This document shows, one piece after another, positions 5,207-61,954 of a DNA stretch of 64,000 nucleotides. The first letter of the stretch is position 1, and each line of letters starts with the position of its first letter. The translations under genes were made by a program, and so were the position numbers. The notes under the pieces were generated by a model that had not been told where the DNA came from, made no database searches, and worked only from the letters and a program-made list of their open reading frames with translations. The stretch is from Patescibacteria group bacterium (GTDB lineage Bacteria > Patescibacteriota > Patescibacteriia > Veblenbacterales > UBA10138): the NCBI GenBank assembly GCA_041645215.1, contig JBAZQK010000001.1, positions 54,091-118,090 of the forward strand, given 5' to 3'.

Positions 5207-5871
5207 GTTTCGCTCTTATTTGTATCGCAGCTTCTTGGGCCCATATTTTTAGCCGCTGGGCAGTTTGTTTGACAGGTATTGGGAGAAGTACATGCTACAT
5301 TACAACACTTCCAGTCTGGTTTACAGTTTCTTTGCCCTAAATCCTCATCACCAGTAAAACAGCTTTGGTCAAAACATTTGTTTGGCAAAGTGCAAATATT
5401 TGACACATCACAGCCCAAAGATTCTTTCCACCATTCTTGAGTTAATATTTGTTTGGGAGTTTTTCCAACCGGCGTTGTTAGAATTCCATACAGAGCCACA
5501 ACCAAAAGATAGCCAGCTAAGATTATTAAAACACCGAGCAAAGTAGAGGTTATTAATTTACGGCCGGCGGTAAATTTTTCCTGATTGCCGGCGGCAAATA
5601 CCATGCTTTGCCCGCCCCAAATAAGCATAACCAGCGCCAGGCCGGCGAATATTGACAAAATAACTTTTTGCAGCACTACGAATAAACTAACAAAATCGCA
5701 CATTGTGCAATTGCCGGTGGCTTGGCAAGCCTCTGGCAAGTTGCCCACAATACCTTTTTTAAGTTCAAAAGTCTGGGCAAGGGCGGGCGATGGCGTTGCC
5801 ATTGAAGCCAATACGGTCAGACCGCCAAGCAAAAAAAGGGTAGCCAGTAGGACTTTAGTTGTCCGTTTCAT
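5191..5871 (-). CDS. T4SS-type pilin with a knottin-like, extremely Cys-rich C-terminal module.
   Basis: ...GGQSMVFAAGNQEKFTAGRKLI... pilin core. The C-terminus reads CDVSNICTLPNKCFDQSCF...CKPDWKCCNVACTSPNTCQTNCP...CDTNKSETCCQP. It overlaps the upstream gene by 16 nt. Confidence 0.55.
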   Translation of the reverse strand: MKRTTKVLLATLFLLGGLTVLASMATPSPALAQTFELKKGIVGNLPEACQATGNCTMCDFVSLFVVLQKVILSIFAGLALVMLIWGGQSMVFAAGNQEKFTAGRKLITSTLLGVLIILAGYLLVVALYGILTTPVGKTPKQILTQEWWKESLGCDVSNICTLPNKCFDQSCFTGDEDLGQRNCKPDWKCCNVACTSPNTCQTNCPAAKNMGPRSCDTNKSETCCQP

Positions 5872-5998: not shown

Positions 5999-7384
5999 CT
6001 ATTTTCTTAAGGTCTGTCCTACTTGATTGACGGCAAAATCAATGGCTTGTTTTAAATCTACGCCGCCGGCCGCTTGTCGGATCATATTTTGAAAAATCTC
6101 TCGCATAATTTTGGATTTAGAGCCGTGGTACCAGCTTTTAGCCGTTAGCAGTTGTTTAGCTGGTTTTCCCAAGTCAATATCTTCCAGTTGTTTATTAATA
6201 AGACTGCGCAGAGCGGTTGGTTTTTGAGCAGAGGTAAGATATTTGTCCGCCACTTCAGATTTGGTGGTTACGTATTGAATAAAGTTCCAGGCTTCATTGG
6301 GGTGCTGGCTTTGTTTAGGAACGGTTTCCAGGTAGTAACTGGCATAATAGACTGGTTTGTCAGCGGCATCAATTTGGGGAAAATTAGCAACCCCGATGTT
6401 AATTTTGGGCGACAATGTTCGCAGTGTAGCTAAATCGCGCCAGTAGGCAAAAACAAAACCAATTTTACCGGCCGCGAACAATTGCCAGGCGTTGCTCTGG
6501 TCGCGCGACCAGGTATAAGTTTCTTTGCTGGGGTTGGCAAAATCAGTATAAAACCTTAGAGCATCGGCGCCCGGGAAAAAATCTTGGCCGCCAACTTTGA
6601 CCGCTTGGTTAAAAGTAGCGGCGGTGCCGGTGTTGTTAGTCATCGGCGTGCCGTTCTGCAGCATTAGAGCCGATAGAATATCATCCGAGTACGGCACATT
6701 GTCGGCTTCGCCCACGGCGGCGCCATGCTGGACAAAAAAACCACTTTTATCAAGTACGGTAATTTTTTGCGTAGCGTCTTTGAATTCAGTCCAAGTAGCC
6801 GGCGCGGTTGATATTTGGGCATTATTCAAAAGGTCGCGATTGTAAAATAACAACAACGTGTCAAGACTGATTGGCAGGCCGTAGGTTTTATTGTCAAAAA
6901 TTGCGTCACGGGCAACAACATCAACAAAAGTGTCAGTTAAAGCCTGGGGTTTAATGGTTGAGCTGGTTTTAAAATACCATTGAGCTTCTTTTTTAAATAA
7001 ACCTTTAATTTCAACAGACGGTAATTTTAAGCTGGCCGGTAATGGCGATAATTTGTCTAACCAGCCGCCCAGACTGGAGTTAGGCAAGGACACAATGTCG
7101 GGGCCGGTACCGGCCGCTAAAGCTTCCAGCAGTTTATTCTCTAATTCTTCCGCCCGCACAGTTTGAATATTGACACTTATGTTGGGTTGGCTGGTTTTGT
7201 AGTCCTTAATTATTTGATCAAAATTAGATTTTTCACCCTCAATTCGCCACCAATTTAAAGTTAGAGGTTGGGCCGCCTCTTTGGCTTTAGGGTCGCCACC
7301 CTTGCAACCCAGACCCAGCAGACTGCCGACTAATAAACCAGTCATTAAAATAATTAAACCACGGTGCGAGCGGAGGATACTCAT
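5999..7384 (-). CDS. ABC transporter extracellular solute-binding lipoprotein, family-1 sugar-binding type.
   Basis: Lipobox LLGLGC in the signal peptide. The 461-aa length and a Trp/Tyr-rich periplasmic binding-protein pattern fit the family. Confidence 0.55.
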   Translation of the reverse strand: MSILRSHRGLIILMTGLLVGSLLGLGCKGGDPKAKEAAQPLTLNWWRIEGEKSNFDQIIKDYKTSQPNISVNIQTVRAEELENKLLEALAAGTGPDIVSLPNSSLGGWLDKLSPLPASLKLPSVEIKGLFKKEAQWYFKTSSTIKPQALTDTFVDVVARDAIFDNKTYGLPISLDTLLLFYNRDLLNNAQISTAPATWTEFKDATQKITVLDKSGFFVQHGAAVGEADNVPYSDDILSALMLQNGTPMTNNTGTAATFNQAVKVGGQDFFPGADALRFYTDFANPSKETYTWSRDQSNAWQLFAAGKIGFVFAYWRDLATLRTLSPKINIGVANFPQIDAADKPVYYASYYLETVPKQSQHPNEAWNFIQYVTTKSEVADKYLTSAQKPTALRSLINKQLEDIDLGKPAKQLLTAKSWYHGSKSKIMREIFQNMIRQAAGGVDLKQAIDFAVNQVGQTLRK

Positions 7385-15274: not shown

Positions 15275-15324
15275 GTAACCAATCCTCCTTGGGAGGACTG
15301 CTCTACCACTTGAGCTACGGACCC
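15275..15324 (-). pseudogene. Partial duplicate of the tRNA-Lys 5' half (acceptor 5' strand plus D-arm) fused to a non-tRNA hairpin.
   Basis: 27 nt, ctgctctaccacttgagctacggaccc, are identical to 15208-15234. They are followed by a tcctccttgggagga hairpin instead of an anticodon arm, with no T-arm or 3' acceptor. Confidence 0.5.
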
Positions 15325-15404
15325 ATGATTGGCTTGTAGCATATAGCTTATAGTAAATAGCGTGAGGGGTCTCTCACTATTAGCTATGTGCCATTAGCTA
15401 ATTT

Positions 15405-15460
15405 GCCCCGGAGGGATTCGAACCCCCAATAATCCCGCCGTGGCGGGACCGTGATATCAT
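15405..15460 (-). pseudogene. Partial tRNA-Arg-like copy with T-arm, 3' acceptor and D-loop similarity but no 5' acceptor strand.
   Basis: gccccggagggattcgaacccccaat is near-identical to the 3' part of the tRNA-Arg at 15548-15622, and gtgatatcat matches its D-region. No complementary 5' acceptor is present. Two hairpins separate the two copies. Confidence 0.4.
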
Positions 15461-15752: not shown

Positions 15753-16790
15753 TTAGCGTAAGCTATCAATTGAGATAACGTGAGCTTCCGCCGTGGCTTG
15801 GGTGATTATATCCTGTTTTAATAAATCCCGAATACTGTGGTCCATGGTTATCATGCCTTGGGCGGCGCTGGTTTGAATGACAGATTTTATTTGTGGCGTT
15901 TTATTTTCGCGAATTAAATTGGCGATCGCTGAGTTATTCGTTAGGATTTCTCGCGCGGCCACTCGTCCGCCGCCGACCTTAGGCAGCAGACGTTGAGAAA
16001 TAATGGCGCGTAAACTTGAAGATAATTGCGATCGAATTTGGTTTTGCTGGTGGGGCGGGAATACATCAACGATGCGGTCAAGGGTTTCAGCCGCATTGTT
16101 GGTGTGTAAAGTGGCAAATACTAAATGTCCGGTTTCGGCCAGCGTGATGGTAGCGGCGATAGTTTCAATATCGCGCATTTCTCCAACCATAATCACGTTC
16201 GGATCCTGCCGCAAAATATGCTTTAGTCCTTCATTAAAAGACAACATATCAGTACCAAGTTGGCGCTGTTTGATAATACTTTTAACCGGGGTAAAAACAA
16301 ATTCAATCGGGTCTTCTAAAGTAATTATATTTACCGCCCGTTCATTATTGATTTGTTCAATAATAGCAGCCAAGGTAGTTGATTTGCCGCAGCCGGTGGG
16401 ACCTGTTACCAACACTAAACCGTAATCAAGACGTGTCAGGTTGTAAACCACCGCTGGCATGGTTAGATCTTCCAGGGCCGGAATTTTAGTAGGAATAACA
16501 CGTGCCACCAGGCCAGGATTGTCTTTTTCAAAATGCAGGTTAATACGGAAGCGGGTGCCGTCTTTAATTTGGAATGAAGTATCAAGCTCGCGTTCAGTTT
16601 CAAATTTCTGTTTTAGTTTTGGCGCCAACATAGCATTGAGCAGTTCAGACAGGTTTTTGCCGGTTAGAATAGGATAATCAAGCTCTTTTAATATACCATC
16701 CACTCTAACAATCGGTGGTTTGTTAACCACCATATGCAAGTCAGAGGCTTTTAAACTAGCAGCCTCGCTAAGCAGAGATTCAATAGTCAT
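15753..16790 (-). CDS. pilT: Type IV pilus retraction ATPase PilT (twitching motility protein).
   Basis: Walker A is LVLVTGPTGCGKSTT. NIITLEDPIEF and MVGEMRD match the PilT/PilU signature motifs. 345 aa. Confidence 0.9.
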   Translation of the reverse strand: MTIESLLSEAASLKASDLHMVVNKPPIVRVDGILKELDYPILTGKNLSELLNAMLAPKLKQKFETERELDTSFQIKDGTRFRINLHFEKDNPGLVARVIPTKIPALEDLTMPAVVYNLTRLDYGLVLVTGPTGCGKSTTLAAIIEQINNERAVNIITLEDPIEFVFTPVKSIIKQRQLGTDMLSFNEGLKHILRQDPNVIMVGEMRDIETIAATITLAETGHLVFATLHTNNAAETLDRIVDVFPPHQQNQIRSQLSSSLRAIISQRLLPKVGGGRVAAREILTNNSAIANLIRENKTPQIKSVIQTSAAQGMITMDHSIRDLLKQDIITQATAEAHVISIDSLR

Positions 16791-17698: not shown

Positions 17699-18757
17699 TT
17701 ATTGGTCAAAGCCGACAAGTTCCGGTTCAAGTTCAATTTTGACTCCTAATTTTTTATAGGCGGTTTTAATTATTTGTTCCGCCAAGGCCATAACGTCGTT
17801 CGCGGTTGCCCGGCCGGTGTTGAGAATCACCAACGGTTGTTTGGGGTTGATTTGCGCCCCCCGGTTAGTTAGGCCCTTAAAGCCCAGAGTTTCAATCAAA
17901 AAGGCCGTTGGCACTTTGATTTGCTGACCGTTGACGAGCTTGGCTTTGTCTAATAATTTGGCCAGATCGTCAGGCGTGAATTCTTTTTTAAAACCAGCTT
18001 TTAATTTGTTGTATTGCGGCTTAGTCAAATATAAATTTTTAAAAAATGACCCGGCACTGCCGCCTCTGGCCCTGGTGGGAAAGGGGTATTTACGATTTCG
18101 GATGTTTATGACGGCGGTTCTGATTTCTCTTAGGTTTGGTCGTTGAGTAAAATGTTTTTTTAAATCACTGTAGCGCAAATCAGGTCGGCCGTTTTTTAGC
18201 AGTTGCATGGTTAGCTCCAGGATGATATAGCGCCCCTTGGCCGTAGAGTTAAAGATGCTGGTACGGTAGCCAAAGCGGCACTGTCGTGAATTTATTATCC
18301 GGATGTCGCTGGTCTGCAAATCAAATACTTTGACGGTTTTTAAAACCCGGCTTAACTCCTGGCCATAGGCGCCAATGTTTTGTACTACGGCCCCGCCGGC
18401 CCGGCCGGGTATATGGGAAAGATTTTCTATGCCCCACAATCGGTTTTTGACGGCGAACTTAACAACATCGTCCCACTTTTCGCCCGCCGCAATCTGCAGC
18501 CAGTACTGATTGTTGGGCCGGCGCTGTAATTGAATGCCCCGCAGCCGCAAGTTTATAACCAGGCCGTTAAAACCGGCGTCGCTGACAACAATATTGCTGC
18601 CCCCGCCCAACACCCAGAGTTTTAATTGTTTTTGGCGCGCCCAAGCCACGGCTTGATTTAAGGCCGACAATTTATTGATGGTGATAAAAAATTTGGCTCG
18701 GCCGCCGATTTTAAAGGTTGTTAAAGGTTTTAACGGTTTGTTTTTTATAATTTTCAT
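17699..18757 (-). CDS. murB: UDP-N-acetylenolpyruvoylglucosamine reductase.
   Basis: FKIGGRAKFFITINKLSALNQAVAWARQKQLKLWVLGGGSNIVVSDAGFNGLVINL is the FAD-binding N-terminus of MurB. 352 aa with a C-terminal extension. Confidence 0.85.
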   Translation of the reverse strand: MKIIKNKPLKPLTTFKIGGRAKFFITINKLSALNQAVAWARQKQLKLWVLGGGSNIVVSDAGFNGLVINLRLRGIQLQRRPNNQYWLQIAAGEKWDDVVKFAVKNRLWGIENLSHIPGRAGGAVVQNIGAYGQELSRVLKTVKVFDLQTSDIRIINSRQCRFGYRTSIFNSTAKGRYIILELTMQLLKNGRPDLRYSDLKKHFTQRPNLREIRTAVINIRNRKYPFPTRARGGSAGSFFKNLYLTKPQYNKLKAGFKKEFTPDDLAKLLDKAKLVNGQQIKVPTAFLIETLGFKGLTNRGAQINPKQPLVILNTGRATANDVMALAEQIIKTAYKKLGVKIELEPELVGFDQ

Positions 18758-18892
18758 AATGTAGTTTGGCTTTTACCACGATTTCTTTCATACCTTTGAT
18801 TATATCAAACTAACAGTCCGGAGTCTCTCATTGTTAACATAAAACCCTCATTTGGAGAAGGGTTGAATGATGTCTCGTCAAACAAGGCAACC

Positions 18893-18970
18893 CGTATGAC
18901 GGGTTGGGGTGGCTAATGGGAATTGAACTCCCGTAATCGCTGCCACAGAGCGGTGTTCTACCATTGAACT
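18893..18970 (-). pseudogene. Degenerate partial copy of tRNA-His (D-arm to T-arm), overlapped by the stop-codon region of the Doc/Fic gene.
   Basis: ccgtaatcgctgccacagagcggtgttctaccattgaacta matches 21786-21826 of the intact tRNA-His apart from one substitution. The 5' acceptor is replaced and the last codons of the Doc/Fic ORF (RRLVQW*) are encoded within the D-arm sequence. Confidence 0.5.
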
Positions 18971-19377
18971 AACCGGCGTTTAATGAATTTTTCTATGTAT
19001 TTTACAGTTTCGTCTTTGGCTTCAGCCGGGCCTTGGGCTACCCAGAGAGCAAAATTATAAAGTTCGGTTTTGTCGGCTTTTAACCACTTGCCGTTTAAAT
19101 ACAAAAAAACCAACAAGGCAGTGACGGCTATTCGCTTATTGCCGTTTTGAAAAGGATGGTTTTTATTTAACAAATAAAATAGCATGGCCGCCTTGCTGAT
19201 TAGGCCATGGTAAAGATATTTTTTATCAAACTTTTGCCAAGGAACAGTCAGGCAGCTTTCCAAAACATTCGGATATCTGGTTGCAAAAGGCGGAATCGGT
19301 TCGTCCCAATTCATGGTTTTGGTGGTCAGGGTGTGGGCGGTGTATTTGATCATTTCCACTGAAATATTCTTAATCAT
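18958..19377 (-). CDS. Fic/Doc-family protein (death-on-curing type toxin/AMPylase-phosphotransferase fold).
   Basis: HPFQNGNKRIAVTA matches the Doc/Fic motif HxFx(D/N)GNKR. 139 aa. Confidence 0.7.
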   Translation of the reverse strand: MIKNISVEMIKYTAHTLTTKTMNWDEPIPPFATRYPNVLESCLTVPWQKFDKKYLYHGLISKAAMLFYLLNKNHPFQNGNKRIAVTALLVFLYLNGKWLKADKTELYNFALWVAQGPAEAKDETVKYIEKFIKRRLVQW

Positions 19378-19380
19378 AAA

Positions 19381-19644
19381 CTATTCCTTCCCCAGCTTTT
19401 TTAGAACCTCGCCGTATTGTTTAATAACCTCAACCACGCCGCTGTCAATTTCTTTTTTTACCCTATCGGTTAATTTGGTAGTTAAAAAATCTTTAATGTC
19501 CTCTTTTTTAATAATATAATTACGCCCCACCTTTTCACCTTTGATTTGGCCGCTTTTAACTTTTTTAAAAATAGTAACGCGGCTCGTCCTCGCGAGGTCA
19601 GCTAATTCTTTGACAGAATAGTATTGTTTTTGAGTTTTTTCCAT
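19381..19644 (-). CDS. Small HTH DNA-binding protein (excisionase/MerR-like HTH_17), the likely partner or antitoxin-regulator of the Doc/Fic gene.
   Basis: YYSVKELADLARTSRVTIFKKVKSGQIKGEKVGRNYIIKKEDI. 87 aa, 3 nt upstream of the Doc/Fic gene in the same orientation. Confidence 0.55.
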   Translation of the reverse strand: MEKTQKQYYSVKELADLARTSRVTIFKKVKSGQIKGEKVGRNYIIKKEDIKDFLTTKLTDRVKKEIDSGVVEVIKQYGEVLKKLGKE

Positions 19645-19649
19645 ATATT

Positions 19650-19710
19650 GCGTTAACCTTATATTATTATGTTAACATATGTTAACAAACTAGTCAACAG
19701 TTAACAAAAT
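19650..19710. promoter_or_regulatory. Cluster of four GTTAAC palindromes immediately upstream of the HTH-Doc operon, a candidate operator.
   Basis: cgttaacc ... atgttaacatatgttaacaaactagtcaacagttaacaaaa. Confidence 0.35.
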
Positions 19711-20023
19711 ATCTAATTAAAACACAAAGCATTAATCATTCACGTTAAAAATTGGGAAGCTTGATTAAACAGCTTATTCCAAACAAAAAATTCTCCTTTG
19801 GGGGAGAGATTGTCTAATGGGTGGCTGAACGAATAGAAGTGGAAAACTTTATTGAAGTTTGGAACGTTGGTATTGACAGAAATATAAAAATAGTCTACAG
19901 TTATTTGTTCTTTAACAAAAGTTGTTTTTACTGATTTATAAATAAGTGGTGATCTGAGTTGTTTATTTATAATTTAGTAAAAACAACTAAATAATATCTA
20001 TCCACAAAAATAGGAGTACAACA

Positions 20024-20893
20024 GTGAAACACAAATTATGGTTTCTGTTTTTTGTTTTGTTTTTATCCAGTTGCTCGACAACGGACGAGCCAGATTATAC
20101 AAAGCAGTTACCACTATTAAAGGGTCATATGAATGACTATGCTGATTTGTTCAGTCAGTCAACCAGAGACTCTTTGGAAAAGCAGTTAAAACTATATGAA
20201 GAACAAACATCCAATCAAATAGTTATTCTTAGTGTTCCTTCTATAGGAGAAAAGACTATTGAAGAATATTCTTATTGGGTGGCCGAATCATGGAAGATTG
20301 GTCAAAAAGGAAAAGACAACGGTATTTTAATTACTGTTGCCAAGGAAGAAAAAAAAGTTCGCATTGAGGTAGGTTATGGTTTGGAGGGAGCCTTACCTGA
20401 TGGCCGCTGTTGGTACATTATAAAAAGTCGTTTTCTTTCTGAGGTCAGCGGTAAATATAAAGATTTTGATAAGGCCATTGAGCAAACCGTAGAAGCAATA
20501 CAGCTCAGCATAGCCGGAGAATTCTCAGCAGTAGAGAAGAAAGTTGAGGACAAAGAAAATTCTTTATGGTTTATAGGAGCTCTTATTATAGCAGCTGCCT
20601 TAGCTGGATTTATTGGGTTACTCTTGGATAAAACAATAGTCAGTAGTGTGGCCACAGCTATAGTCTATCCTTTAGTTTGGTTAGCCTTCTGGCCGCCAGA
20701 CGCACTGGTACTTATTGGTTTAATAGCCTTGGGTGCTCTGATTGGTTTTATAGCCAGGTATTTTATTGAAGCAGGTTTAGAAGGTAGTGGTGGAAGTAGT
20801 GGCGGGGGCTATTATGGTGGTGGTAGCAGTAGTAGCGGTTTCTTTGGTGGTGGCGGTAGTTTTGGCGGCGGCGGTGCCAGTGGTGGTTGGTAA
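20024..20893 (+). CDS. TPM-domain lipoprotein (YgcG/TLP18.3 phosphatase-like) with a C-terminal TM segment and Gly-rich tail.
   Basis: Lipobox LSSCST. ...NGILITVAKEEKKVRIEVGYGLEGALPD... is the TPM signature. The C-terminus ends in a GGSSGGGYYGGGSSSSGFFGGGGSFGGGGASGGW tail. Confidence 0.7.
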   Translation: MKHKLWFLFFVLFLSSCSTTDEPDYTKQLPLLKGHMNDYADLFSQSTRDSLEKQLKLYEEQTSNQIVILSVPSIGEKTIEEYSYWVAESWKIGQKGKDNGILITVAKEEKKVRIEVGYGLEGALPDGRCWYIIKSRFLSEVSGKYKDFDKAIEQTVEAIQLSIAGEFSAVEKKVEDKENSLWFIGALIIAAALAGFIGLLLDKTIVSSVATAIVYPLVWLAFWPPDALVLIGLIALGALIGFIARYFIEAGLEGSGGSSGGGYYGGGSSSSGFFGGGGSFGGGGASGGW

Positions 20894-20921
20894 TTAAATT
20901 CAAATAAAAAAGGAAATTAAG

Positions 20922-21569
20922 ATGAAACTCACAAAAGAAGATAAAAAAATTATTTTTCAGGCGGTACAAAGGAATGAGGCTTTTACCTCAGCAGAAATCG
21001 CTTGGTGCATAACAGGCAGGTCCAGTTCGTATACCGACGCAGCTTTAATCTGGGGTATTGTATTGGTCGCATTTGGGATTGTGCTCCAATTAGTTATGGA
21101 ATTGAGTGGAAGTTGGGACGGCGATGCGACTTTGTCGTTGGTGGAATCGGTTGTGTTGTTCGCGGTTGGTTTACTAGTTGCTAAAATTCCAAGTTGCCGT
21201 CGATTAGTGATAGATAAAAATAGAATGAGAAGGCAGGTAATTGAACGAGCTCAGGCTAGTTTTTATAGAGGAGGTGTTCAATTAACGAAGGGTCACAATG
21301 GTGTGCTGGTTTTCGTCAGCGTCTTTGAGCGTTTGATTATTATCATTGCGGATAAAGCTATTGATGATGTTGGAGTTTTAAAAGAATTTATTAAAGTGGT
21401 AAATAGCGAAAACCCAGATAAAAAATCATGGGGTAATAAAAACACTGTTATTCAAAAGTGTATCAATCACATTGATGCTCTAGGGGTAATATGCGGTTCT
21501 AAATTACCTCGCCAGGTTGGTGATGTGAATGAGTTGTCCGACGATGGATTAAATGAAAAAGAGGTATAA
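20922..21569 (+). CDS. Divergent TPM-like membrane protein.
   Basis: HNGVLVFVSVFERLIIIIADKAID parallels the NGILITVAKEEKKVRIEVGYG block of the upstream TPM protein. An N-terminal TM helix is present. Confidence 0.35.
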   Translation: MKLTKEDKKIIFQAVQRNEAFTSAEIAWCITGRSSSYTDAALIWGIVLVAFGIVLQLVMELSGSWDGDATLSLVESVVLFAVGLLVAKIPSCRRLVIDKNRMRRQVIERAQASFYRGGVQLTKGHNGVLVFVSVFERLIIIIADKAIDDVGVLKEFIKVVNSENPDKKSWGNKNTVIQKCINHIDALGVICGSKLPRQVGDVNELSDDGLNEKEV

Positions 21570-21752
21570 AATAATATTATATAAGTGAAATTTCCTAGAG
21601 TCTGCTATTTATAGCGGACTCTCTTTTATTTTGGCAACTTAACAAGAGTTTGCCGTCTCAGGGTGGGGTACGAATTTTGTTAAAAATTGGGAAACTCAAT
21701 TCAGTAGCTTACCTAAAACAAAAAACTCTCTCTTGAAGGAGAGATTTTTCGA

Positions 21753-21827
21753 TGGGGTGAGTGAGGGGAATCGAACCCCCGTAACCGCTGCCACAGAGCG
21801 GTGTTCTACCATTGAACTACACCCACC
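21753..21827 (-). tRNA. tRNA-His(GTG) with G-1 and an encoded CCA.
   Basis: The reverse complement is G-GTGGGTGTAGTTCAATGGTAGAACACCGCTCTGTGGCAGCGGTTACGGGGGTTCGATTCCCCTCACTCACCCCA, anticodon loop CTGTGGC. Confidence 0.85.
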
Positions 21828-22043
21828 ATATATTGTTCTTTAAAAAAACTCTTGCACAAACATGACAAGAGGATAATTCGCCCGCTGTGCCAAGTTTAAG
21901 CAGTATAGGTTAAAGTGTATTAACAAGTCAATCATCCGGTCTATAAGATTTTGGATTAGCGCTGATGATTTACCGGCCGTTAATTTAAAAAACCACTGCT
22001 GAACAAAAAACAGTGGTTTTTTAAAAGTACAACAAAACAAAAG

Positions 22044-23351
22044 TTACTGGGCGTTATTAGTTACAATTGAACTGGCTTGGGCGTTGTCAATTACCGATAT
22101 CCAGATTTTACCGGGATTAAGAATTAACGGTTGACCGCTAGAGTCTTGCCAGTCAAAGAAACTGTCGCTATCGGTTTTAGTCCATTGGCCCTGATACATT
22201 TGACCGTTGGCAAAAAGCAATAACTGGCCGCTACCGGTTGTCTGTATATCAACCCGTTTCAAGGCGTCGTTAGGATAAGGGGTAATTTTGGTGAATAGGA
22301 CAATCACGTTTTTTATAGCCGGAGCCGTATTAGTCGCGCTATCAAATTGAGTGGTGCCGCCGGTGGTGCGAGCGTAGGTGTCTGTAACCGATTGATAAGT
22401 GTAAACCACTTGGTATTCCGACGGTTGATAAGGAATGGTGATATTGAGCACGGGCTTGCCCGTCGGCAAATCCTTGTTAAAATTTAATTTTGGGACGGCG
22501 CCGGTCTGGCTCCAATTTTTATTAGCCGCGTAGTCCCAAAAGCGTTTAGCGGTAGTGAACAAGTTGTGCGGCGGTTTTTTAGAATCGTCGCGCGTGTAAG
22601 CGTCAGCATTAAAGAATTCATTAACGTCCTGAATATCACCATAACCCTTTTGCAATTGACTTAAAGCTTTTTCACTACCGCCGGAGTGGCTAAAGAAGGG
22701 CGCTAGCGGGCGAATCCAATCGTTAAAGAACGAGCGCGCGCTGCGGATAGGTCCGACTAATCCGGGCGGCAGTTCACTTTGGAACACGGTGACAAAGCGG
22801 GTGATGCCGCCTTCGGTGGGTGACTCAATCACCAAATCGGCGCTATTCAGGCCGGCTTGCGGACGAACCGTAGGAAAATTTTCTATGACAACGGCCCAGG
22901 GGCGGCGCTCCGCGTTAGCCGTAGTCGTGGCTAGGCCCGTCAAGGGAGCGACCGCGGTAAACTGTTCTACCGGTTTAAGTTTTTTGGGGGCGCGGTAAGA
23001 AATGTCGGCGGTTTGTAAACTATAATTATTGAAGTTTAAAAATACCACCAAACTACTAGTCAGTAAGATGGCAATTATACCAATGCCAAACCAAGCCAAC
23101 CAGCGCCAGTAAACCGCGTCTTGATCCGGTATTTTAATCGGCGCTTGGTAATCAACCAGTTGGGGCGCCGCTAAGTTATTAATTTCCTGATAATTAAATT
23201 TGCTGGCCGCCTCCCTAGCCGCCGTGGTTTTTTGGGCGCGGGAAGTTTCTTGACTGGTCGTTATTGGCTTGGTTGGCGCGCGACGGGGGCGGTGGACTGA
23301 TTTTGGTTTAAGGCTGTTGGGGCTAGCCTCCTGTCTAGCTTTGGTGGGCAT
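22044..23351 (-). CDS. DUF3048-domain protein (YerB-like) with a basic N-terminus and a TM anchor.
   Basis: RPWAVVIENFPTVRPQAGLNSADLVIESPTEGGITRFVTVFQS matches the DUF3048 core. Confidence 0.55.
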   Translation of the reverse strand: MPTKARQEASPNSLKPKSVHRPRRAPTKPITTSQETSRAQKTTAAREAASKFNYQEINNLAAPQLVDYQAPIKIPDQDAVYWRWLAWFGIGIIAILLTSSLVVFLNFNNYSLQTADISYRAPKKLKPVEQFTAVAPLTGLATTTANAERRPWAVVIENFPTVRPQAGLNSADLVIESPTEGGITRFVTVFQSELPPGLVGPIRSARSFFNDWIRPLAPFFSHSGGSEKALSQLQKGYGDIQDVNEFFNADAYTRDDSKKPPHNLFTTAKRFWDYAANKNWSQTGAVPKLNFNKDLPTGKPVLNITIPYQPSEYQVVYTYQSVTDTYARTTGGTTQFDSATNTAPAIKNVIVLFTKITPYPNDALKRVDIQTTGSGQLLLFANGQMYQGQWTKTDSDSFFDWQDSSGQPLILNPGKIWISVIDNAQASSIVTNNAQ

Positions 23352-23740
23352 AGGTTTTATGTTAATGGTATTTAAGATGCTTATAAACTTTATTATAGCG
23401 CGAAAATTGGCAATGTCTAAAATTTAATGATTCGGTTTTTTTATTCTACTACTACTTTTACCTTTTTATCTTTGCAGTATTCTTGAATTAGTCCGAACCC
23501 CAGTAGTACCCTGCTAAGCGGGGACACGGGGCATAGCGCATTTCACTCTGCCAGTTGGAGGGCGAGCCTGCCTGCCGGCAGGCAGGGAAGTCCCCCCGCG
23601 AAAATTCGGAAAGGCGGCGGAGCCGCACCGCTGACAATTTCAAGTTTTTCTTTGGCGACAAATTCTTAAAATTTAATTTATTTGAGAGTAAAGGTACAAC
23701 CGTATTTATCGTCGTGCCAATTGTAATTACATCAAACATT

Positions 23741-24277
23741 TTATTTTTTAATTAAAGCTGCTATAACGATTAAAATAATAAAAGGCGCAATAGTCCAGAT
23801 CGGTTGGAATATTATGTTAAGAATTTTTGAGGGGAATTTTATAGTGGGAAATATAAACCAAAATTTTTCTATTTTTGTCTGCTCTATAACCTCCCCTTTC
23901 ATTTTTAAAAGCCAAATGAGATCGGCGACTAAAATCAAATGATAAATACCTACCCACCAAAGCTCACTCTTTATAACCATGAGGGTGGCTACAACAAAAA
24001 TGGTACCGACAAAAATAAAGGACGGGAATACATAAAGAAACCATGGTAAATTTACCGCTCGCTTGAATTTCTCGCTCGTAGCCCAATGGCCTTGCCACTT
24101 TTGTATCGTTTCCGCGGGAACAAATTCATTCATTGGCGTTTTCTGAGATAATTCTTTCCATTGTGCCGCTTTATTCTTTCTTAAGATAAAAATAGCTACA
24201 CTTAAAAAGTTTTGATGCAAACCAAAAATTAACAGAAGAACTGAGATATTCATTAATATATTAAACAATGTATTCAT
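23741..24277 (-). CDS. Hypothetical membrane protein.
   Basis: 178 aa with four or five hydrophobic helices and no motif I recognise. Confidence 0.3.
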   Translation of the reverse strand: MNTLFNILMNISVLLLIFGLHQNFLSVAIFILRKNKAAQWKELSQKTPMNEFVPAETIQKWQGHWATSEKFKRAVNLPWFLYVFPSFIFVGTIFVVATLMVIKSELWWVGIYHLILVADLIWLLKMKGEVIEQTKIEKFWFIFPTIKFPSKILNIIFQPIWTIAPFIILIVIAALIKK

Positions 24278-24462
24278 ATTTTATAGTAAAATTAGTTTTC
24301 GACTTTATGATTAAAAATTTTTCTTTTTCTCCTTTCAAAACCGCCAATTCGTTTTTACCCCCAAAATTGAATACCAATTAGTCGCCGAGCCCCGCACCAG
24401 AACAAGTTCGGTGTGGGATAAACTCCACGAGGCGAACCAAAACTCTTTGACTTTTCCTGTCT

Positions 24463-24526
24463 GGTGCCTCGGGAGGAATTGAACCTACATCAGTGGCTTA
24501 GAAGTCCACAGTTCTATCTTCACCCC
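24463..24526 (-). pseudogene. Degenerate, D-arm-deleted copy of the adjacent tRNA-Arg.
   Basis: ggaggaattgaacctacatcagtggcttagaagtccacagttctatcttcacccc aligns with 24541-24600 of the intact gene with substitutions. The D-arm is missing and the acceptor strands are not complementary. Confidence 0.4.
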
Positions 24527-24534
24527 TTTATTTA

Positions 24535-24606
24535 TCCCCCCGAGAGGAATTGAACCTCTATACCCGGCTTAGAAGTCCGGAGTTCTATCCATTGAACTAC
24601 AGGGGG
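24535..24606 (-). tRNA. tRNA-Arg(TCT), flanked by an 18-nt perfect leader/trailer inverted repeat. There is an A-G mismatch at position 31-39.
   Basis: The reverse complement is CCCCCTG TA GTTCAATGGATAGAAC TCCGGACTTCTAAGCCGGG TATAGAGGTTCAATTCCTCTCGGGGGG A. The flanking cccctttatttatccccc (24523-24540) and gggggataaataaagggg (24603-24620) are exact reverse complements. Confidence 0.55.
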
Positions 24607-24714
24607 GATAAATAAAGGGGCAAGTTGTCCGCTCCGTCGTCGCTCCGTCATCGCTTCGCCAGATCTCGCAGAGCGACGACGGAGCGGGAAACTACGAGGG
24701 CATAGGGAAATGTA

Positions 24715-24850
24715 ACCCCAGTATATCAACTTCGCTAACAAAATTAGCGAGCGTGAGTCGAAAGACTGTTTAATAAATAAATGGTGATTTAACTTTGATT
24801 AATTTTACTGATTTTGTTAAGAGCGAGCTATAGCGAAGTAGTTATACTGG
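24715..24850. mobile_element. MITE-like element of family 'cccagtata' (copy 1 of 3), about 136 bp with terminal inverted repeats and no coding capacity.
   Basis: cccagtatatcaacttcgctaacaaaattagcgagc ... gagctatagcgaagtagttatactggg. Near-identical copies lie at 42279-42416 and, inverted, at 55338-55480. Confidence 0.5.
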
Positions 24851-24990
24851 GTAAAATTCAAAAATCTCCGCCCAAGGCGGATCTACCTAGGGTACGAAAA
24901 ATGTAAAATTATTTACAAATGTGTTTTATTTTTAAATTTGATAAGGGCTAATCAATTTTATTACTAATTTAAACTAAATTCAAGCTTATT

Positions 24991-25890
24991 TTAAGTGTAG
25001 CGTTTAGTGGTAATAATATTAGCGTGGCCCAGAGTTTGTTGGATATTTTTTATGGTGTTGCCTTGTTTTATAAGTTGATTGGCAAAAACGTGACGCAAGG
25101 TTGAGGGTGTAATTTTTTTATTCAGTCCAGCCGCCAAACGATAGTGTTTAATTATTCTTTGTAAGCTGCGAGGGGTTAAGGCAAAATTATGACGTTGCTT
25201 GCGCACGGGCGAGGTTTGAGCGCGATCATGACTAATGAATAAGGCTGGCTCGGTATCATGCCGCGCCTTTAGATAATTGTTTATAATATTTTTAATATTA
25301 GGCGGCAATGGTATTTGGCGTACCCGACCTTTAGTACGGCTGATCGTAATAAAATTTTCCTCCGCCTTAAGCGCGTTACGTTGCAGGTGGGACAATTCGG
25401 AAACTTTTAAACCCGCCGCCACCAATAAATTTAAAATCGCTAAGTCGCGTTTTTTTATTAATTCACTATCTTGGCTTTGTTCACAAAATTTAATCATTAA
25501 ATTAACCTCGGCCGCGCTGACCGCCGGTAAAATGATTGAACGCAGTCGCTTTAACGACAAGTTGGTATAGTCAGGCACCGGAATGCCGGTTTGTGACAGG
25601 TATTTTAAAAAAGCCCGCAGTCCGATTAAATAATAATTTTGCGTGGCCGGCGACAAGTTGTGCCCGCTATTGGAGGTGGATTGCTTAAGCCAGGCCTTAT
25701 AGTTTTCCAAGTGCTGGCCGGTGAGGTCGCTGGCTTTATCAAGTTTAACCCGGGCCTGGTCCGACCATTGCCGGAATTTATTCAGATAAATGCGGTAATT
25801 GGATGCCGACGATTGGCTCAACTGGCGCTTAAGTTTAAGCGTTTGCAGAAAATTGTTTATGGTTTCGTTTAAACCAGCCGGGTTCGCCAT
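24991..25890 (-). CDS. Tyrosine-type site-specific recombinase (phage-integrase/XerCD family).
   Basis: C-terminal ...TLRHVFANQLIKQGNTIKNIQQTLGHANIITTKRYT carries the R...H..R..Y catalytic tetrad. The N-terminal SAM-like domain reads YRIYLNKFRQWS. Confidence 0.8.
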   Translation of the reverse strand: MANPAGLNETINNFLQTLKLKRQLSQSSASNYRIYLNKFRQWSDQARVKLDKASDLTGQHLENYKAWLKQSTSNSGHNLSPATQNYYLIGLRAFLKYLSQTGIPVPDYTNLSLKRLRSIILPAVSAAEVNLMIKFCEQSQDSELIKKRDLAILNLLVAAGLKVSELSHLQRNALKAEENFITISRTKGRVRQIPLPPNIKNIINNYLKARHDTEPALFISHDRAQTSPVRKQRHNFALTPRSLQRIIKHYRLAAGLNKKITPSTLRHVFANQLIKQGNTIKNIQQTLGHANIITTKRYT

Positions 25891-32413: not shown

Positions 32414-32718
32414 ATGAATGGCAATACCGCTCCCGCCGCGGGCGTGTTTTATATGATTTATGGGTTTATCTTTACCCCAGTCAAGCTTCGGTGCAGGCTC
32501 TAAATCCTGACTGGTCCTGAATTTATTTCAGGACAGGACAGGCTTGATTCAGGAATCTCGAGAGATGCCGAAATCACCGCCGCCCTCGCCGAAGGCGAGG
32601 CTCCGCCAAATGGCGGGCCGGGGGAAACGGTGATTGGCGGGGCAAGCCACCGCCGTTAGCGGGGCAAGCAGTATGACAAAAAGCCAACCTGTAATTCCTA
32701 TTATTGTTCAATTTGTTT

Positions 32719-34242
32719 ATGTCAGCCAAGGTTTATACAGTTCATATATTTGGACTTTCAGCTATCACTATTGAAGTGGAAGCTGATATGTCGTCGCAGT
32801 TGCCCGGTATATTTATTGTGGGGTTACCCGACAAAGCTGTGGAAGAGGCGCGGGAACGTGTCCGATCGGCTTTAAAAAATTGCGATTGCGAATTTCCGCG
32901 CACTAAAGTAACTATAAATTTGGCTCCGGCGGATGTAAAAAAAGAGGGCTCGGCTTATGATTTACCGATCGCTTTAGCGTTGTTATCGGCTAGTCGCCAA
33001 CTTAAGTCGGATATTGACTGGCGCGGCGCTCTTTTTATGGGTGAGTTGTCGTTGGACGGACAATTGCGTTCGGTTCCCGGGGTGTTGGTGGCGGCGCGGG
33101 CGGCCCAGCGCTTGGGCTTTAAAAAAATTTTTGTGCCGGTAGCTAACGCGGCGGAGGCCGCCTTAGTAGATAAAGTAGAGGTTTACGCGGCCCGTGATTT
33201 ACGAGAAATATTAGCTCATTTAAGCGGACAAAAATTATTAGATCGCCAACCATTAACAGTGTTGCCGCTCGTGGCCAATTTTGTCGTTGGTGAATTTGAT
33301 TTGTTGAATATTCATGGGCAGGAGCAAGCTAAACGAACCTTGGAGATTGCGGCCGCGGGCGGTCATAATTTACTAATGTCGGGCCCGCCGGGCTCTGGTA
33401 AAACCTTGTTGGCTAAGGCTTTGGTGTCTTTATTGTCACCGTTAGGGCGCGAAGAAATAATTGAAGTAACGGAAATATACAGTGTGGCCGGGTTAATGAC
33501 AGCGTCCAAAACCATCAAAGCGACGCGGCCCTGGCGGGCGCCACACCATACGGCTTCGGAAGTATCTTTGGTGGGAGGCGGTTCAACGGTGCGGCCGGGA
33601 GAAATTTCTTTAGCTCACCGCGGGGTTTTGTTTCTTGATGAATTGCCCGAATTTCCGCGGTCAGTTTTAGAAAGTTTGCGCCAACCCTTAGAGGACGGTG
33701 TGATTACAGTTTCTCGCGCCGCCGGCAGCGTGTCGTTTCCGGCTCGATTTATTTTAGTGGCGGCGATGAATCCTTGCCCGTGCGGTTTTGCCGGTGATCC
33801 GGCTAAACCTTGTCTTTGTACTCCGGGGCAAGTGTGGCGCTATCAACGCAAACTTTCCGGCCCGTTATTAGATCGGTTTGATTTGCACGTTCAAGTGCCG
33901 CGACTGCCGTTTGAAAAGTTAGAATTACCGGGCAAAGAAACTTCGCAAATTGTGGCTAAACGCGTCCGGGCGGCGCGCGGACGCCAACAGCAGCGTTTTG
34001 GCATAGGCGTTACCAAGTTGAATTCAGCTATGAGTTTATTGGATATAAAAAAGTTGATAGTTTTACCACCATCAGCTCAAGATTTACTGCGCCAGGCGGT
34101 AAACAAGTATCATTTATCAACCCGCGTTTATCATCGCGTGTTAAAAGTAGCCCGTACGATTGCTGATTTAGCCGGTGTCTTAGACATTGACACCAGCCAC
34201 GTGGCCGAGGCGTTGCAGTATCGTCCGCGAGTTAATGAGTAG
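32719..34242 (+). CDS. comM: YifB/ComM-family Mg-chelatase-like AAA+ ATPase.
   Basis: N-terminal Lon-protease-like domain VYTVHIFGLSAITIEVEAD. Walker A is LLMSGPPGSGKTLLAKAL. A C-terminal Mg-chelatase domain follows. Start taken at ATG 32719. Confidence 0.85.
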   Translation: MSAKVYTVHIFGLSAITIEVEADMSSQLPGIFIVGLPDKAVEEARERVRSALKNCDCEFPRTKVTINLAPADVKKEGSAYDLPIALALLSASRQLKSDIDWRGALFMGELSLDGQLRSVPGVLVAARAAQRLGFKKIFVPVANAAEAALVDKVEVYAARDLREILAHLSGQKLLDRQPLTVLPLVANFVVGEFDLLNIHGQEQAKRTLEIAAAGGHNLLMSGPPGSGKTLLAKALVSLLSPLGREEIIEVTEIYSVAGLMTASKTIKATRPWRAPHHTASEVSLVGGGSTVRPGEISLAHRGVLFLDELPEFPRSVLESLRQPLEDGVITVSRAAGSVSFPARFILVAAMNPCPCGFAGDPAKPCLCTPGQVWRYQRKLSGPLLDRFDLHVQVPRLPFEKLELPGKETSQIVAKRVRAARGRQQQRFGIGVTKLNSAMSLLDIKKLIVLPPSAQDLLRQAVNKYHLSTRVYHRVLKVARTIADLAGVLDIDTSHVAEALQYRPRVNE

Positions 34243-40099: not shown

Positions 40100-40301
40100 C
40101 TTAATTTAAAATGTAAATATCTCCGCCAAAGGCGGATCTGCCTCTGGCATGAAAAAATTAAAATGATAATGCAAAATGTAAAAATTATGAATTTAGACAT
40201 TTTATAATTTTGGTTGCCTTGTGCAACCATCCCGCCGCGGCGGGATAAAAGCAAAACTTTTATTGTCATTTTTCATTTTGATTTTTTATTTTTAAACTTT
40301 C

Positions 40302-55174: not shown

Positions 55175-55335
55175 AATGATAATTAATGTAAATATCAAAA
55201 ATCAAAATGCCTATTATAACTCAAAAGTCAAAAGTAAAAGCTTCGCTTTTAGTAGTTTTGCGATTTTCATGCCCGAGGCAGATCCGCCTTTGGCGGAGAC
55301 TTTTAACTTTTGACTTAAATTTAATATTTACATTT
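55175..55335. repeat. 'gatatttacatttt' family repeat element with a central ccgcctttggcgg hairpin and no cargo.
   Basis: The left end is aatgtaaatatcaaaaatcaaaatg...ctcaaaagtcaaaagtaaaag. The centre is ggcagatccgcctttggcggag. The right end is cttttaacttttgacttaaatttaatatttacatttta, the inverted complement of the left end. Confidence 0.45.
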
Positions 55336-55337
55336 TA

Positions 55338-55480
55338 CCCAGTATAACTACTTCGCTACAACTCGCTTTTAACAAAATTAGTGCAATTAATATATTAATC
55401 AGATTTAAATTATCATTTATTTACTAAACAGTCTGTCAACTCACGCTCGTTAATTTTGTTAGCGAAGTTGATATACTGGG
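55338..55480. mobile_element. MITE-like element of family 'cccagtata' (copy 3, inverted relative to copy 1).
   Basis: cccagtataactacttcgctacaactcgcttttaacaaaattag ... taattttgttagcgaagttgatatactggg. Confidence 0.5.
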
Positions 55481-55495
55481 TTTAAATTTCCTGTC

Positions 55496-61001: not shown

Positions 61002-61017
61002 TTTTTACTTTTGCGTT

Positions 61018-61512: not shown

Positions 61513-61532
61513 TGTAAAATGCAAAAATCAAA

Positions 61533-61904: not shown

Positions 61905-61954
61905 TTTTGCATTTTTAATTGTAATTTTGATTTTTGATATTTACATTTTGAATT

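What the first reader, a model, noticed from the sequence alone, without database searches (positions are those of the whole stretch)
18842..21830. Two nested islands at tRNA-His, marked by three copies of the tRNA 3' region
The intact tRNA-His lies at 21753-21827, preceded by a ctctctcttgaaggagagat hairpin. A second copy of the hairpin plus the acceptor-proximal sequence lies at 19745-19830. A third, more degenerate copy that includes the D/anticodon/T segments lies at 18842-18970. In that copy the 5' part has been overwritten by the 3' end of a Doc/Fic gene, whose last six codons are encoded by D-arm sequence. The segments between the copies carry an HTH-Doc/Fic pair with a GTTAAC operator cluster, and two TPM-domain genes, both AT-rich. 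This is the footprint of successive site-specific integrations into tRNA-His.
Basis: seen in the sequence. Interest (0 to 1): 0.55.

Follow-up and report, generated by a model that had tools for sequence, protein, structure and literature searches.

The report
Gene-cassette array behind tRNA-His
Behind the histidine tRNA gene of an uncultured Patescibacteria-type bacterium lies a row of small gene cassettes separated by decayed copies of the tRNA's tail and terminator, a known kind of insertion hot spot that still varies between sister strains here.

Summary
An intact tRNA-His (21753-21826, minus strand) is followed by two diverged copies of "tRNA-His 3' part + terminator hairpin", at 19744-19852 and 18842-18971. 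They bound two integrase-less cassettes: TPM pair, and HTH-Doc toxin pair.

The islands are tandem, not nested.

- A sister-strain contig, 99.8-99.9% identical in the flanks, has two extra cassettes (asparaginase-like, DedA/VTT) at the middle copy, each bounded by a further copy.
- That junction maps to a 4-nt AATC, 8-12 nt past the CCA end at the base of the hairpin.
- An outgroup strain shares the window's layout, so the sister strain most likely gained the cassettes.
- The distal pseudo-tRNA is a chimera. Its body matches the host tRNA-His (41/43). Its T-loop-to-CCA part matches another lineage's tRNA-His (24/24). The breakpoint lies at the T-loop.
- The HTH-Doc and asparaginase-like cassettes recur in other Patescibacteria next to the same half-sites but in a different order. 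Doc has homologs at 94-70% identity, while MurB has none between 52% and 99%.

Best reading: serial site-specific accretion of CIME-like mini-cassettes, with the recombinase supplied in trans. No recombinase, empty site or circular junction was found. This is a new member of a known kind, of moderate interest.

The parts
21753..21827 (-). Intact tRNA-His(GTG), with encoded G-1 and CCA. It is the anchor of the array (site A, left half).
   Evidence: ARAGORN; Rfam 65.7 bits; sequence.
21679..21752 (-). Site A, right half. It holds the spacer ...TCGAAAAATC, the terminator hairpin at 21727-21744, a T-run and a 65-nt flank ending in TTCCCAATTTTTAAC. It is 76-80% identical to the right half of the middle site.
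20922..21569 (+). Cassette 1, gene 2. A 215-aa membrane protein with a remote TPM-type domain. Its own terminator-like hairpin lies at 21597-21622.
   Evidence: No Pfam or NCBIfam hit. PDB BA42 E=7e-5 over residues 104-206. BA42 is a stand-alone TPM domain. Terminator.
20024..20893 (+). Cassette 1, gene 1. A 289-aa TPM-domain protein with a signal/lipobox-like N-terminus, transmembrane segments and a Gly-rich tail.
   Evidence: Pfam PF04536 E=2.6e-35. The nearest non-strain homologs are 52-58% identical.
19808..19852 (-). Middle site, left half. A decayed tRNA-His T-arm/acceptor remnant (...GTTTTCCACTTCTATTCGTTCAGCCACCCATTAGACAATC). The mapped crossover AATC is at 19808-19811 (GATT on the plus strand).
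   Evidence: Logan contig L115 ends exactly at 19808.
19744..19807 (-). Middle site, right half. It holds the terminator-like hairpin at 19792-19807, a T-run and a flank homologous to 21679-21726.
19652..19705 (.). Four GTTAAC palindromes, the likely operator/promoter region of the HTH-Doc operon. The region is conserved in homologous cassettes.
   Evidence: 4 of the window's 32 sites fall in 54 nt.
19381..19644 (-). Cassette 4, gene 1. An 87-aa HTH_17 ('excisionase-family' wHTH) protein, the presumed antitoxin/repressor.
   Evidence: Pfam PF12728 E=7.5e-9; TIGR01764 E=3.3e-10.
18958..19377 (-). Cassette 4, gene 2. A 139-aa Doc/Fic toxin with the motif HPFQNGNKR. Its last 4 codons and the stop lie in the pseudo-tRNA.
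   Evidence: Pfam Fic E=1.7e-10. DOC_P1 56.5 bits, above the cutoff of 38.65. Alignment; sequence.
18905..18971 (-). Site E, left half. A pseudo-tRNA-His (positions 9-76) that is a chimera. The D arm to the 5' strand of the T stem is host-type (41/43). The T-loop to CCA is identical (24/24) to the tRNA-His of another Patescibacteria lineage.
18842..18904 (-). Site E, right half. Two terminator-like hairpins (18888-18906 and 18843-18864) before murB. A homologous 'type 2' right half follows the asparaginase-like cassette in L089.
17699..18757 (-). murB, the conserved chromosomal flank on the distal side of the array.
   Evidence: Pfam FAD_binding_4 and MurB_C; contexts.
22044..23351 (-). DUF3048 gene, the conserved chromosomal flank upstream of tRNA-His.
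   Evidence: Pfam; contexts.

Best explanation
The stretch between tRNA-His and murB is a tandem array of small integrase-less gene cassettes, built by repeated site-specific recombination at the 3' end of tRNA-His.

Each cassette carries a mimic of the target. One end holds a tRNA-His 3'-like segment (the 'left half'). The other end holds a terminator-like hairpin with its flank (the 'right half'). Joined in a circle, the two ends would reconstitute 'tRNA-His tail + terminator', which is an attP resembling attB. Every integration leaves one more diverged copy of that unit.

The window has two cassettes: TPM pair, and HTH-Doc toxin-antitoxin. A sister strain has four.

Shown:
- the repeats and their tRNA origin;
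- the strain polymorphism bounded by the repeats, with the exchange point in a 4-nt AATC just past the CCA end;
- the chimeric pseudo-tRNA with a T-loop breakpoint;
- re-use of the same cassettes and half-sites in other genomes.

Inferred:
- that a tyrosine recombinase encoded elsewhere does the cutting and joining (the Xer-like gene at 24991-25890 or an integrase outside the window);
- that the cassettes pass through a circular form;
- that the Doc toxin-antitoxin pair helps to retain the array.
For: Repeats and their origin:
- A 67-nt 90% copy and a 78-nt 76% copy of the tRNA-His region; Rfam still sees the distal copy as tRNA.
- All copies align as one unit: T arm/acceptor, CCA, 8-12 nt, AATC, hairpin, T-run.

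Strain polymorphism:
- Contig L001 is 99.8-99.9% identical to the window on both sides. At the middle copy it has about 1.47 kb extra, holding two cassettes and three copies of the unit (B, C, D).
- The window's middle copy equals B-left plus D-right, joined in AATC.
- SNP patterns make the window and L001 sisters. The outgroup strain L004/L088 (98.5%) has the window's layout and junction. Gain in L001 is therefore the parsimonious reading.
- Logan contig L115, 100% identical to both variants, ends exactly at that AATC, as expected at an assembly-graph branch.
- B and D share identical runs of 10-12 nt elsewhere in the unit, yet the exchange sits in a 4-nt match. That argues against homologous recombination or slippage.

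Foreign origin of the copies:
- The distal pseudo-tRNA is a host/foreign chimera broken at the T-loop: 41/43 host-type, then 24/24 identical to the tRNA-His of L101.
- The T-loop is a position where integration into tRNA-like genes has been mapped, for example in Dehalococcoides ssrA (PMC3146451).

Mobility of the cassettes:
- In L089 an asparaginase-like cassette (87% nt) is followed by a left half, a 'type 2' right half and then HTH-Doc (90% nt). That is the same parts in another order.
- L099 has a left half and a hairpin upstream of HTH-Doc. L098 has a genuine tRNA-His 140 nt away.
- Doc has homologs at 94, 81, 80, 78...% identity, whereas MurB has none between 52% and 99%.
- Cassette GC is 0.365-0.38 against 0.441 for the window.

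Precedent:
- Serial integration with partial tRNAs, and integrase-less att-flanked CIMEs, are established (10.1101/2020.12.28.424599; PMC5704250; PMC3146451).
Against: - No recombinase gene lies in any of the four cassettes. The only one in the 64-kb window is a generic Xer-like protein 3 kb away, among core genes.
- No empty site and no circular junction was found.
- Only one polymorphic event is available. It needs one extra substitution (loop C in the window and L004, T in L001).
- The two mappable breakpoints differ (T-loop versus 8-12 nt past the CCA), so more than one mechanism or enzyme may be involved.
- No dyad-symmetric core site is evident around AATC apart from the hairpin itself.
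- The TPM cassette has no close homologs elsewhere (next best 58%), so its mobility is not shown.
- Twelve other Patescibacteria tRNA-His loci show no such arrays.
Confidence: 0.62

Rival explanations
1. There is no dedicated site-specific machinery. The array is shuffled by uptake of foreign DNA and RecA-type or microhomology-mediated recombination. The conserved tRNA-tail/terminator units merely serve as portable patches of homology, and L001 acquired its longer allele by allelic replacement through the identical flanks.
For: The genome carries competence- and pilus-type genes: ComM-like Mg-chelatase at 32704-34242, PilT-type ATPase at 15753-16790, and pilins. No integrase lies in the cassettes. 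The flanks of the L001 insertion are 99.8-99.9% identical to the window, so replacement through the flanks would leave almost no trace. The single C/T difference next to the junction could be donor DNA.
Against: This does not explain how the array arose. The B/D exchange point lies in a 4-nt match although identical runs of 10-12 nt are available in the same repeats. The units are only 64-88% alike over about 70 nt, which is poor substrate for RecA. The T-loop chimera joins two tRNA sequences that are 22/43 identical on one side.
Confidence: 0.2
2. The cassettes are dead relics. Full-size integrase-bearing islands or prophages once integrated into tRNA-His and were then deleted down to one or two cargo genes each. 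The repeats are fossil attR sites with no present activity, and the L001/window difference is a deletion in the window lineage.
For: This is the classical route to CIMEs (PMC5704250). Partial tRNAs and degenerated elements are common in tRNA-anchored islands. Three of the copies are strongly decayed.
Against: The outgroup strain shares the short layout and its exact junction, so two identical deletions or extra gene flow would be needed. The sister strains differ by 0.1-0.2% elsewhere, so the event is recent. All four cassettes are uniformly tiny, and two of them recur elsewhere as the same small units with the same half-sites.
Confidence: 0.12
3. The copies arose by local tandem duplication of the resident tRNA-His gene and terminator, followed by decay. 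The genes between them arrived independently.
For: The direct repeats all share one orientation next to the parent gene. Other tRNA genes in the window also have partial tandem copies.
Against: All copies carry a foreign acceptor type (TAGCCACC-like) rather than the resident CACTCACC. The distal copy's last 24 nt are identical to the tRNA-His of another lineage. The same half-sites flank the same cassettes in unrelated contigs.
Confidence: 0.04

Closest known systems
Tandem accretion of genomic islands and cis-mobilizable elements (CIMEs) at the 3' end of tRNA/tmRNA genes, such as ICESt1-related elements and Dehalococcoides ssrA genomic islands
   Same: An intact RNA gene sits at one end, with direct repeats of its 3' part between successive islands. 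Some units lack integration genes but keep att sites. Strain-to-strain differences are bounded by the repeats. An ORF runs into the att repeat, as dsiB does in Dehalococcoides (PMC5704250; PMC3146451).
   Different: The units here are only 0.66-1.9 kb with one or two genes, and none of the four has a recombinase. The repeats are long (45-110 nt), strongly diverged and include the terminator. The one mapped exchange lies past the CCA end rather than inside the RNA gene. The host is a Patescibacteria-type genome.
Tycheposons and tRNA-anchored islands of Prochlorococcus
   Same: Serial integration at one tRNA pushes older elements outward. Partial tRNAs are scattered through the island. The cargo behaves as 'plug-in' cassettes in a streamlined genome (10.1101/2020.12.28.424599).
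   Different: Tycheposons carry their own tyrosine or serine recombinase and often replication genes. Nothing of that kind is present here.
Integron cassette arrays
   Same: Small cassettes of one or two genes, each ending in a recombination site. The recombinase is not in the cassette. The cassette boundary sits at the base of a hairpin. Cassette order is shuffled between genomes, and toxin-antitoxin cassettes occur in the array.
   Different: There is no intI/attI/Pc platform. The sites are a tRNA-like segment plus a short 5-7 bp hairpin, not long imperfect attC palindromes. Gene orientation is mixed, and the HTH-Doc cassette has its own operator.
Xer-dependent modules (IMEX elements and pdif modules of Acinetobacter plasmids); recalled from the literature, not read here
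   Same: Small modules without a recombinase, often toxin-antitoxin pairs, moved by a host Xer-type recombinase acting in trans. The only recombinase in the window is Xer-like.
   Different: No dif-like 28-bp XerC/XerD site was recognised at the boundaries. The modules here are bounded by direct repeats derived from a tRNA.
Doc/Phd-type type II toxin-antitoxin systems
   Same: A Doc/Fic toxin with the HxFxNGNKR motif follows a small DNA-binding protein in one operon, with a palindromic operator cluster.
   Different: The upstream partner is an HTH_17 ('excisionase-family') protein, not Phd. The family is very widespread in Patescibacteria (2323 hits at E<=1e-10).

Membership tests
tRNA-anchored integrative island array (tandem accretion) | An intact tRNA gene at one boundary and direct repeat(s) of its 3' part at the island boundaries | tested here: met
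   67 nt at 90% and 78 nt at 76%; five units in L001; alignment.
tRNA-anchored integrative island array (tandem accretion) | Presence/absence polymorphism whose end points fall in the repeats | tested here: met
   L001 against the window and L004: 1.47 kb with two cassettes, junction in AATC.
tRNA-anchored integrative island array (tandem accretion) | An empty site (tRNA directly next to the distal flank) in related genomes | not testable with these tools
   No MurB relative between 52% and 99% identity exists in 5.8 billion proteins or in the GTDB species genomes. The three strains found all carry the array.
tRNA-anchored integrative island array (tandem accretion) | An integrase encoded in the element next to an att site | tested here: not met
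   No recombinase domain in any ORF of 18.8-21.8 kb or in the extra L001 cassettes.
Cis-mobilizable element (CIME) | Flanked by attL/attR-type repeats but lacking integration and transfer genes | tested here: met
   definition from PMC5704250.
Cis-mobilizable element (CIME) | Derived by decay of an ICE/IME and mobilised by a neighbouring functional element | not testable with these tools
   No functional element is seen in the window or in related contigs. Excision cannot be assayed here.
Integron | An IntI-type integrase with attI and Pc next to the array | tested here: not met
   The only tyrosine recombinase (24991-25890) scores 76.5 bits against the integron-integrase model, whose cutoff is 265. 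It is Xer-like and lies 3 kb away beyond other genes.
Integron | attC sites: imperfect palindromes of 60-140 bp with R''/L''-L'/R' boxes | tested here: not met
   By inspection and by the hairpin scan, the units consist of a tRNA-like segment and a 5-7 bp hairpin. No attC covariance model was available to run.
Tycheposon | A tRNA-specific tyrosine or large serine recombinase, with or without a replication module, in the element | tested here: not met
   definition.
Doc/Fic type II toxin | Fic fold with the Doc-type motif HxFx(D/N)(A/G)NKR, scoring above the family cutoff | tested here: met
   HPFQNGNKR is invariant in the alignment. DOC_P1 scores 56.5 bits against a cutoff of 38.65.
TPM domain (PF04536) | A match to the family model | tested here: met
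   The 289-aa protein matches at E=2.6e-35. The 215-aa protein matches only through PDB BA42 at E=7e-5 and has no Pfam hit. Its single-sequence AlphaFold model was unusable (pLDDT 42).

The most novel reading that the evidence does not exclude
Patescibacteria may possess an integron-like gene-cassette system. In it, one- or two-gene cassettes (toxin-antitoxin pairs, membrane proteins) end in a mimic of 'tRNA-His tail + terminator'. A chromosomal Xer-type recombinase acting in trans inserts and excises them at the base of the terminator hairpin. The tRNA-His 3' flank would serve as the platform, and cassettes would be exchanged between lineages.
Probability: 0.15. Interest if true: 0.8.

Novelty: new member of a known kind. 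Interest (0 to 1): 0.45.

Why it matters
Patescibacteria have tiny genomes, are uncultured, and are poorly understood with respect to how they gain and lose genes. This locus is a concrete, still-varying hot spot in which single-gene-scale cassettes are added next to an essential tRNA gene without a recombinase of their own. If a host recombinase moves such cassettes, that would be a simple route for gene flow in this group. It would also give a sequence signature (tRNA-His-like half-site plus hairpin) for finding more of them. As it stands, the locus is a clean example of tRNA-anchored accretion in a new phylum rather than a new principle.

Tried and rejected
- **Relatives for an empty site.** I searched MurB against GTDB species genomes and 5.8 billion proteins. 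Nothing lies between 52% and 99% identity, so no empty site could be sought. Exact-protein look-ups gave only three strain variants.
- **Viral contigs.** Two site patterns gave seven chance hits without tRNAs, or none. There is no sign of a phage or satellite origin.
- **Metagenome scan.** A scan with the foreign-type tRNA-His tail gave 12 genuine tRNA-His loci. None has an array, and one has a 17-nt partial copy. The array is therefore not a general feature of the phylum.
- **Profile search for more sites.** An nhmmer profile of units B, C and D found no further sites in the window or in any fetched locus.
- **TPM cassette mobility.** The TPM protein has no close homologs outside the strain, so I could not show that cassette 1 is mobile.
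- **Second TPM gene.** BLASTP between the two cassette-1 proteins found nothing. A single-sequence AlphaFold model was useless (pLDDT 42). Remote homology rests on the PDB BA42 hit only.
- **Crossover inside the hairpin loop or in the CAAAGGAGAA run.** Rejected because it needs three extra substitutions in unit B, against one for AATC.
- **dif-like reading of the GTTAAC/TTATGTTAA region.** Rejected in favour of an operator, because the motif travels with HTH-Doc operons that lack the repeats.
- **Mis-assembly.** Rejected because the layouts recur in independent ENA, JGI and Logan assemblies.

Full report
**What is in the window**

tRNA-His(GTG) lies at 21753-21826 on the minus strand (Rfam 65.7 bits). 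G-1 and CCA are encoded, and a terminator-like hairpin follows at 21727-21744. Reading in the tRNA's direction, the order is as follows:

- a two-gene cassette on the opposite strand: a 289-aa TPM-domain protein at 20024-20893 and a 215-aa protein at 20922-21569;
- a 109-nt 'middle' repeat at 19744-19852;
- an HTH_17 / Doc operon at 19644-18958;
- a pseudo-tRNA-His at 18971-18905;
- two hairpins at 18906-18843;
- murB at 18757-17699.

The repeat finder gives a 67-nt copy at 90% identity (18905-18971 against 21753-21819) and a 78-nt copy at 76% (19744-19821 against 21679-21756). The blastn E-values are 1.6e-19 and 9.6e-7. Rfam still scores the distal copy as tRNA (38 bits, above the gathering score of 29), but its acceptor and T arm are broken and ARAGORN rejects it.

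Small corrections apply.

- Only the last four sense codons and the stop of Doc lie in tRNA-derived sequence.
- The middle copy extends into a decayed T-arm/acceptor remnant.
- The second 'TPM' gene is supported only by a remote match to the stand-alone TPM protein BA42 (E=7e-5; identity of BA42).
- The AT bias is modest: 0.365-0.38 against 0.441.
- The GTTAAC cluster is real: four sites in 54 nt against 32 in 64 kb.

**The key comparative result**

Exact-protein look-ups recovered three strain variants.

- Contig L001 (ENA ERZ27249422 k141_285843) is 99.8-99.9% identical to the window on both sides.
- L001 carries about 1.47 kb extra exactly at the middle repeat. The insert holds an asparaginase-like ORF and a DedA/VTT ORF.
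- L001 has three copies of the repeat unit there: B at 5649-5717, C at 6308-6416 and D at 7155-7264.
- L001 therefore has five units bounding four cassettes.
- The window's middle copy is B-left joined to D-right. The switch falls inside AATC (B: ...AGACAATC|GCTTCC; D: ...AGAAAATC|TCTCCC; window: ...AGACAATC|TCTCCC).
- That position is 8-12 nt past the CCA-like end, at the 5' base of the hairpin.

A three-way SNP comparison shows that the window and L001 are sisters. Within 700 nt of the junction on the cassette-1 side, all 41 variable columns group the two against L004. The more distant strain L004/L088 (98.5%) has the window's layout and the same junction. The parsimonious reading is that L001 gained the two cassettes. 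One substitution in the hairpin loop (C in the window and L004, T in L001) is left unexplained.

A Logan contig from another run (L115, SRR8449827) is 100% identical to both variants and stops exactly at that AATC. That is what an assembly-graph branch between the two variants would produce. B and D share identical runs of 10-12 nt elsewhere in the unit, so an exchange inside a 4-nt match is not what homologous recombination or slippage would favour.

**Origin of the repeat units**

All units align as one structure: variable loop/T arm/acceptor, CCA, a short spacer ending in AATC, a hairpin and a T-run. Units E and L089 carry an extra hairpin inserted after the CCA.

The acceptor-like parts of B, C, D, E and the related sites are of the TAGCCACC type, not the resident CACTCACC type. 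A metagenome scan with the last 24 nt of E returned 12 genuine tRNA-His genes of other Patescibacteria that have exactly this tail.

E is a chimera.

| Segment of E | Identity to the resident tRNA-His | Identity to the L101 tRNA-His |
|---|---|---|
| D arm to the 5' strand of the T stem | 41/43 | 22/43 |
| T-loop to CCA | 19/24 | 24/24 |

The breakpoint lies at the T-stem/T-loop border. The T-loop is a position where insertions into tRNA-like genes have been mapped (PMC3146451). This rules out simple local duplication of the resident gene. It points to recombination between two different tRNA-His-type sequences.

**Are the cassettes mobile?**

MurB has no relative between 52% and 99% identity in 5.8 billion proteins. 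The GTDB species genomes give at most 50%. By contrast, Doc has a continuum of homologs at 94, 81, 80, 78...% identity. The contexts are as follows.

- **L089** (NCBI metagenome contig). An asparaginase-like cassette (87% nt identity to L001's) comes first. It is followed by a left half (…GTTTCCCAGCTCGTCTCGTTCAGCCACCCCCA). Next come a double-hairpin right half like the one before murB, and then HTH-Doc (90% nt). These are the same parts in a different order. Nucleotide homology to the window stops at 18974, exactly where the tRNA-like part begins.
- **L099.** It has a left half, a 140-nt GC-rich insert and a type-1 hairpin upstream of HTH-Doc.
- **L098.** It has a genuine tRNA-His 140 nt upstream, on the other strand.
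- **L090.** It has no repeat.

The TPM protein has no close relatives outside the strain, so mobility of cassette 1 is not shown. The 12 other tRNA-His loci carry no arrays, and no further sites exist in the window.

**The recombinase**

None of the four cassettes encodes one. Pfam annotation of most larger ORFs in the window found a single tyrosine recombinase, at 24991-25890. It is Xer-like and scores far below every NCBIfam equivalog cutoff. It lies among core genes in several assemblies. Whether this enzyme or an integrase outside the window acts on the sites is unknown.

**Interpretation**

The best-supported model is serial site-specific accretion of small integrase-less cassettes at the tRNA-His 3' end. 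This is the pattern known from CIMEs and tandem islands (PMC5704250; PMC3146451) and from Prochlorococcus tRNA islands. Here it occurs at the scale of one or two genes, in a Patescibacteria-type genome (pilins, PilT, ComM, small ORFs).

The islands are tandem, not nested. The Doc ORF running into the att repeat parallels dsiB in Dehalococcoides. Close Doc homologs without a tRNA fragment end in similar residues.

I put the rivals at the following weights.

| Rival | Confidence |
|---|---|
| Recombination of imported DNA without dedicated machinery | 0.2 |
| Dead relics of larger elements, with a deletion in the window lineage | 0.12 |
| Local duplication | 0.04 |

An integron-like system driven by a host Xer-type enzyme remains possible but unproven (0.15).

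**Verdict**

- The locus is a new member of a known kind, of moderate interest.

Noticed in passing
window 24467-24620, with 24991-25890: tRNA-Arg(TCT) at 24535-24606 is followed directly by an 81%-identical partial copy (tRNA positions 18-69) at 24467-24518. It is bracketed by a 19-nt inverted repeat (24523-24541 / 24602-24620) that extends the acceptor stem. The Xer-like recombinase gene lies just upstream.
   Followed up: partly
window 23581-24460, against L001 1-1859 and L112 12311-12589: This is a second strain-variable spot. The window has a 178-aa membrane ORF after tRNA-Arg(TCT). Contig L001 instead has a different tRNA-Arg(TCT), a tRNA-Pro, and DUF805 and 202-aa ORFs. L112, from the same sample as L001, follows the window and then diverges after 23581. 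The two cassette leaders share a TTTGGGGG...AAATTTTTAATCAT motif.
   Followed up: partly
window 15277-15327 and 15406-15431: There are further partial tRNA copies: an 87% copy of the 5' half of tRNA-Lys(CTT) upstream of that gene, and a 26-nt exact copy of the tRNA-Arg(TCG) T-arm region about 120 nt downstream of that gene.
   Followed up: no
window about 24706-24857 and 55332-55491; also L099 about 620-760 and L101 9810-9937: A GC-rich element of about 150 nt is repeated in this AT-rich genome at 86% identity. Other GC-rich inserts sit exactly at tRNA-His-like junctions in L099 and L101. In L101 a 17-nt copy of the tRNA-His tail follows the insert, 172 nt after the gene.
   Followed up: no
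window about 24860-24890 and 40122-40152; L001 1829-1859: A short palindromic hairpin (AGATCCGCCTWGGGCGGA) recurs at several intergenic places. It forms a 31-nt insertion in L001 relative to the window at the 23640 junction.
   Followed up: no
window 36233-40099: The leucyl-tRNA synthetase ORF (1288 aa) contains an alpha/beta-hydrolase domain (residues 242-404) inserted in the catalytic domain, before the editing domain.
   Followed up: no
window 60600-63079: Three genes for '23S rRNA intervening sequence' four-helix proteins (PF05635, one also bAvd-like) are interleaved with a PrgI-family gene and an unannotated ORF.
   Followed up: no
window 44580-54905: A single 3441-aa ORF, not annotated here. 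The 991-aa and 665-aa ORFs downstream of it have no Pfam hit.
   Followed up: no
window 17699-18757: MurB of this organism has no relative between 52% and 99% identity. Its best distant hits are mostly Acidobacteriota (about 50%), with one Patescibacteria hit at a similar level. The lineage is very poorly sampled, or murB has an unusual history.
   Followed up: partly
L098 775-849 and 999-1686: An HTH-Doc operon (Doc 80% identical) lies 140 nt upstream of a genuine tRNA-His on the opposite strand. This is a different geometry from the window but again an association of this cassette family with tRNA-His.
   Followed up: partly
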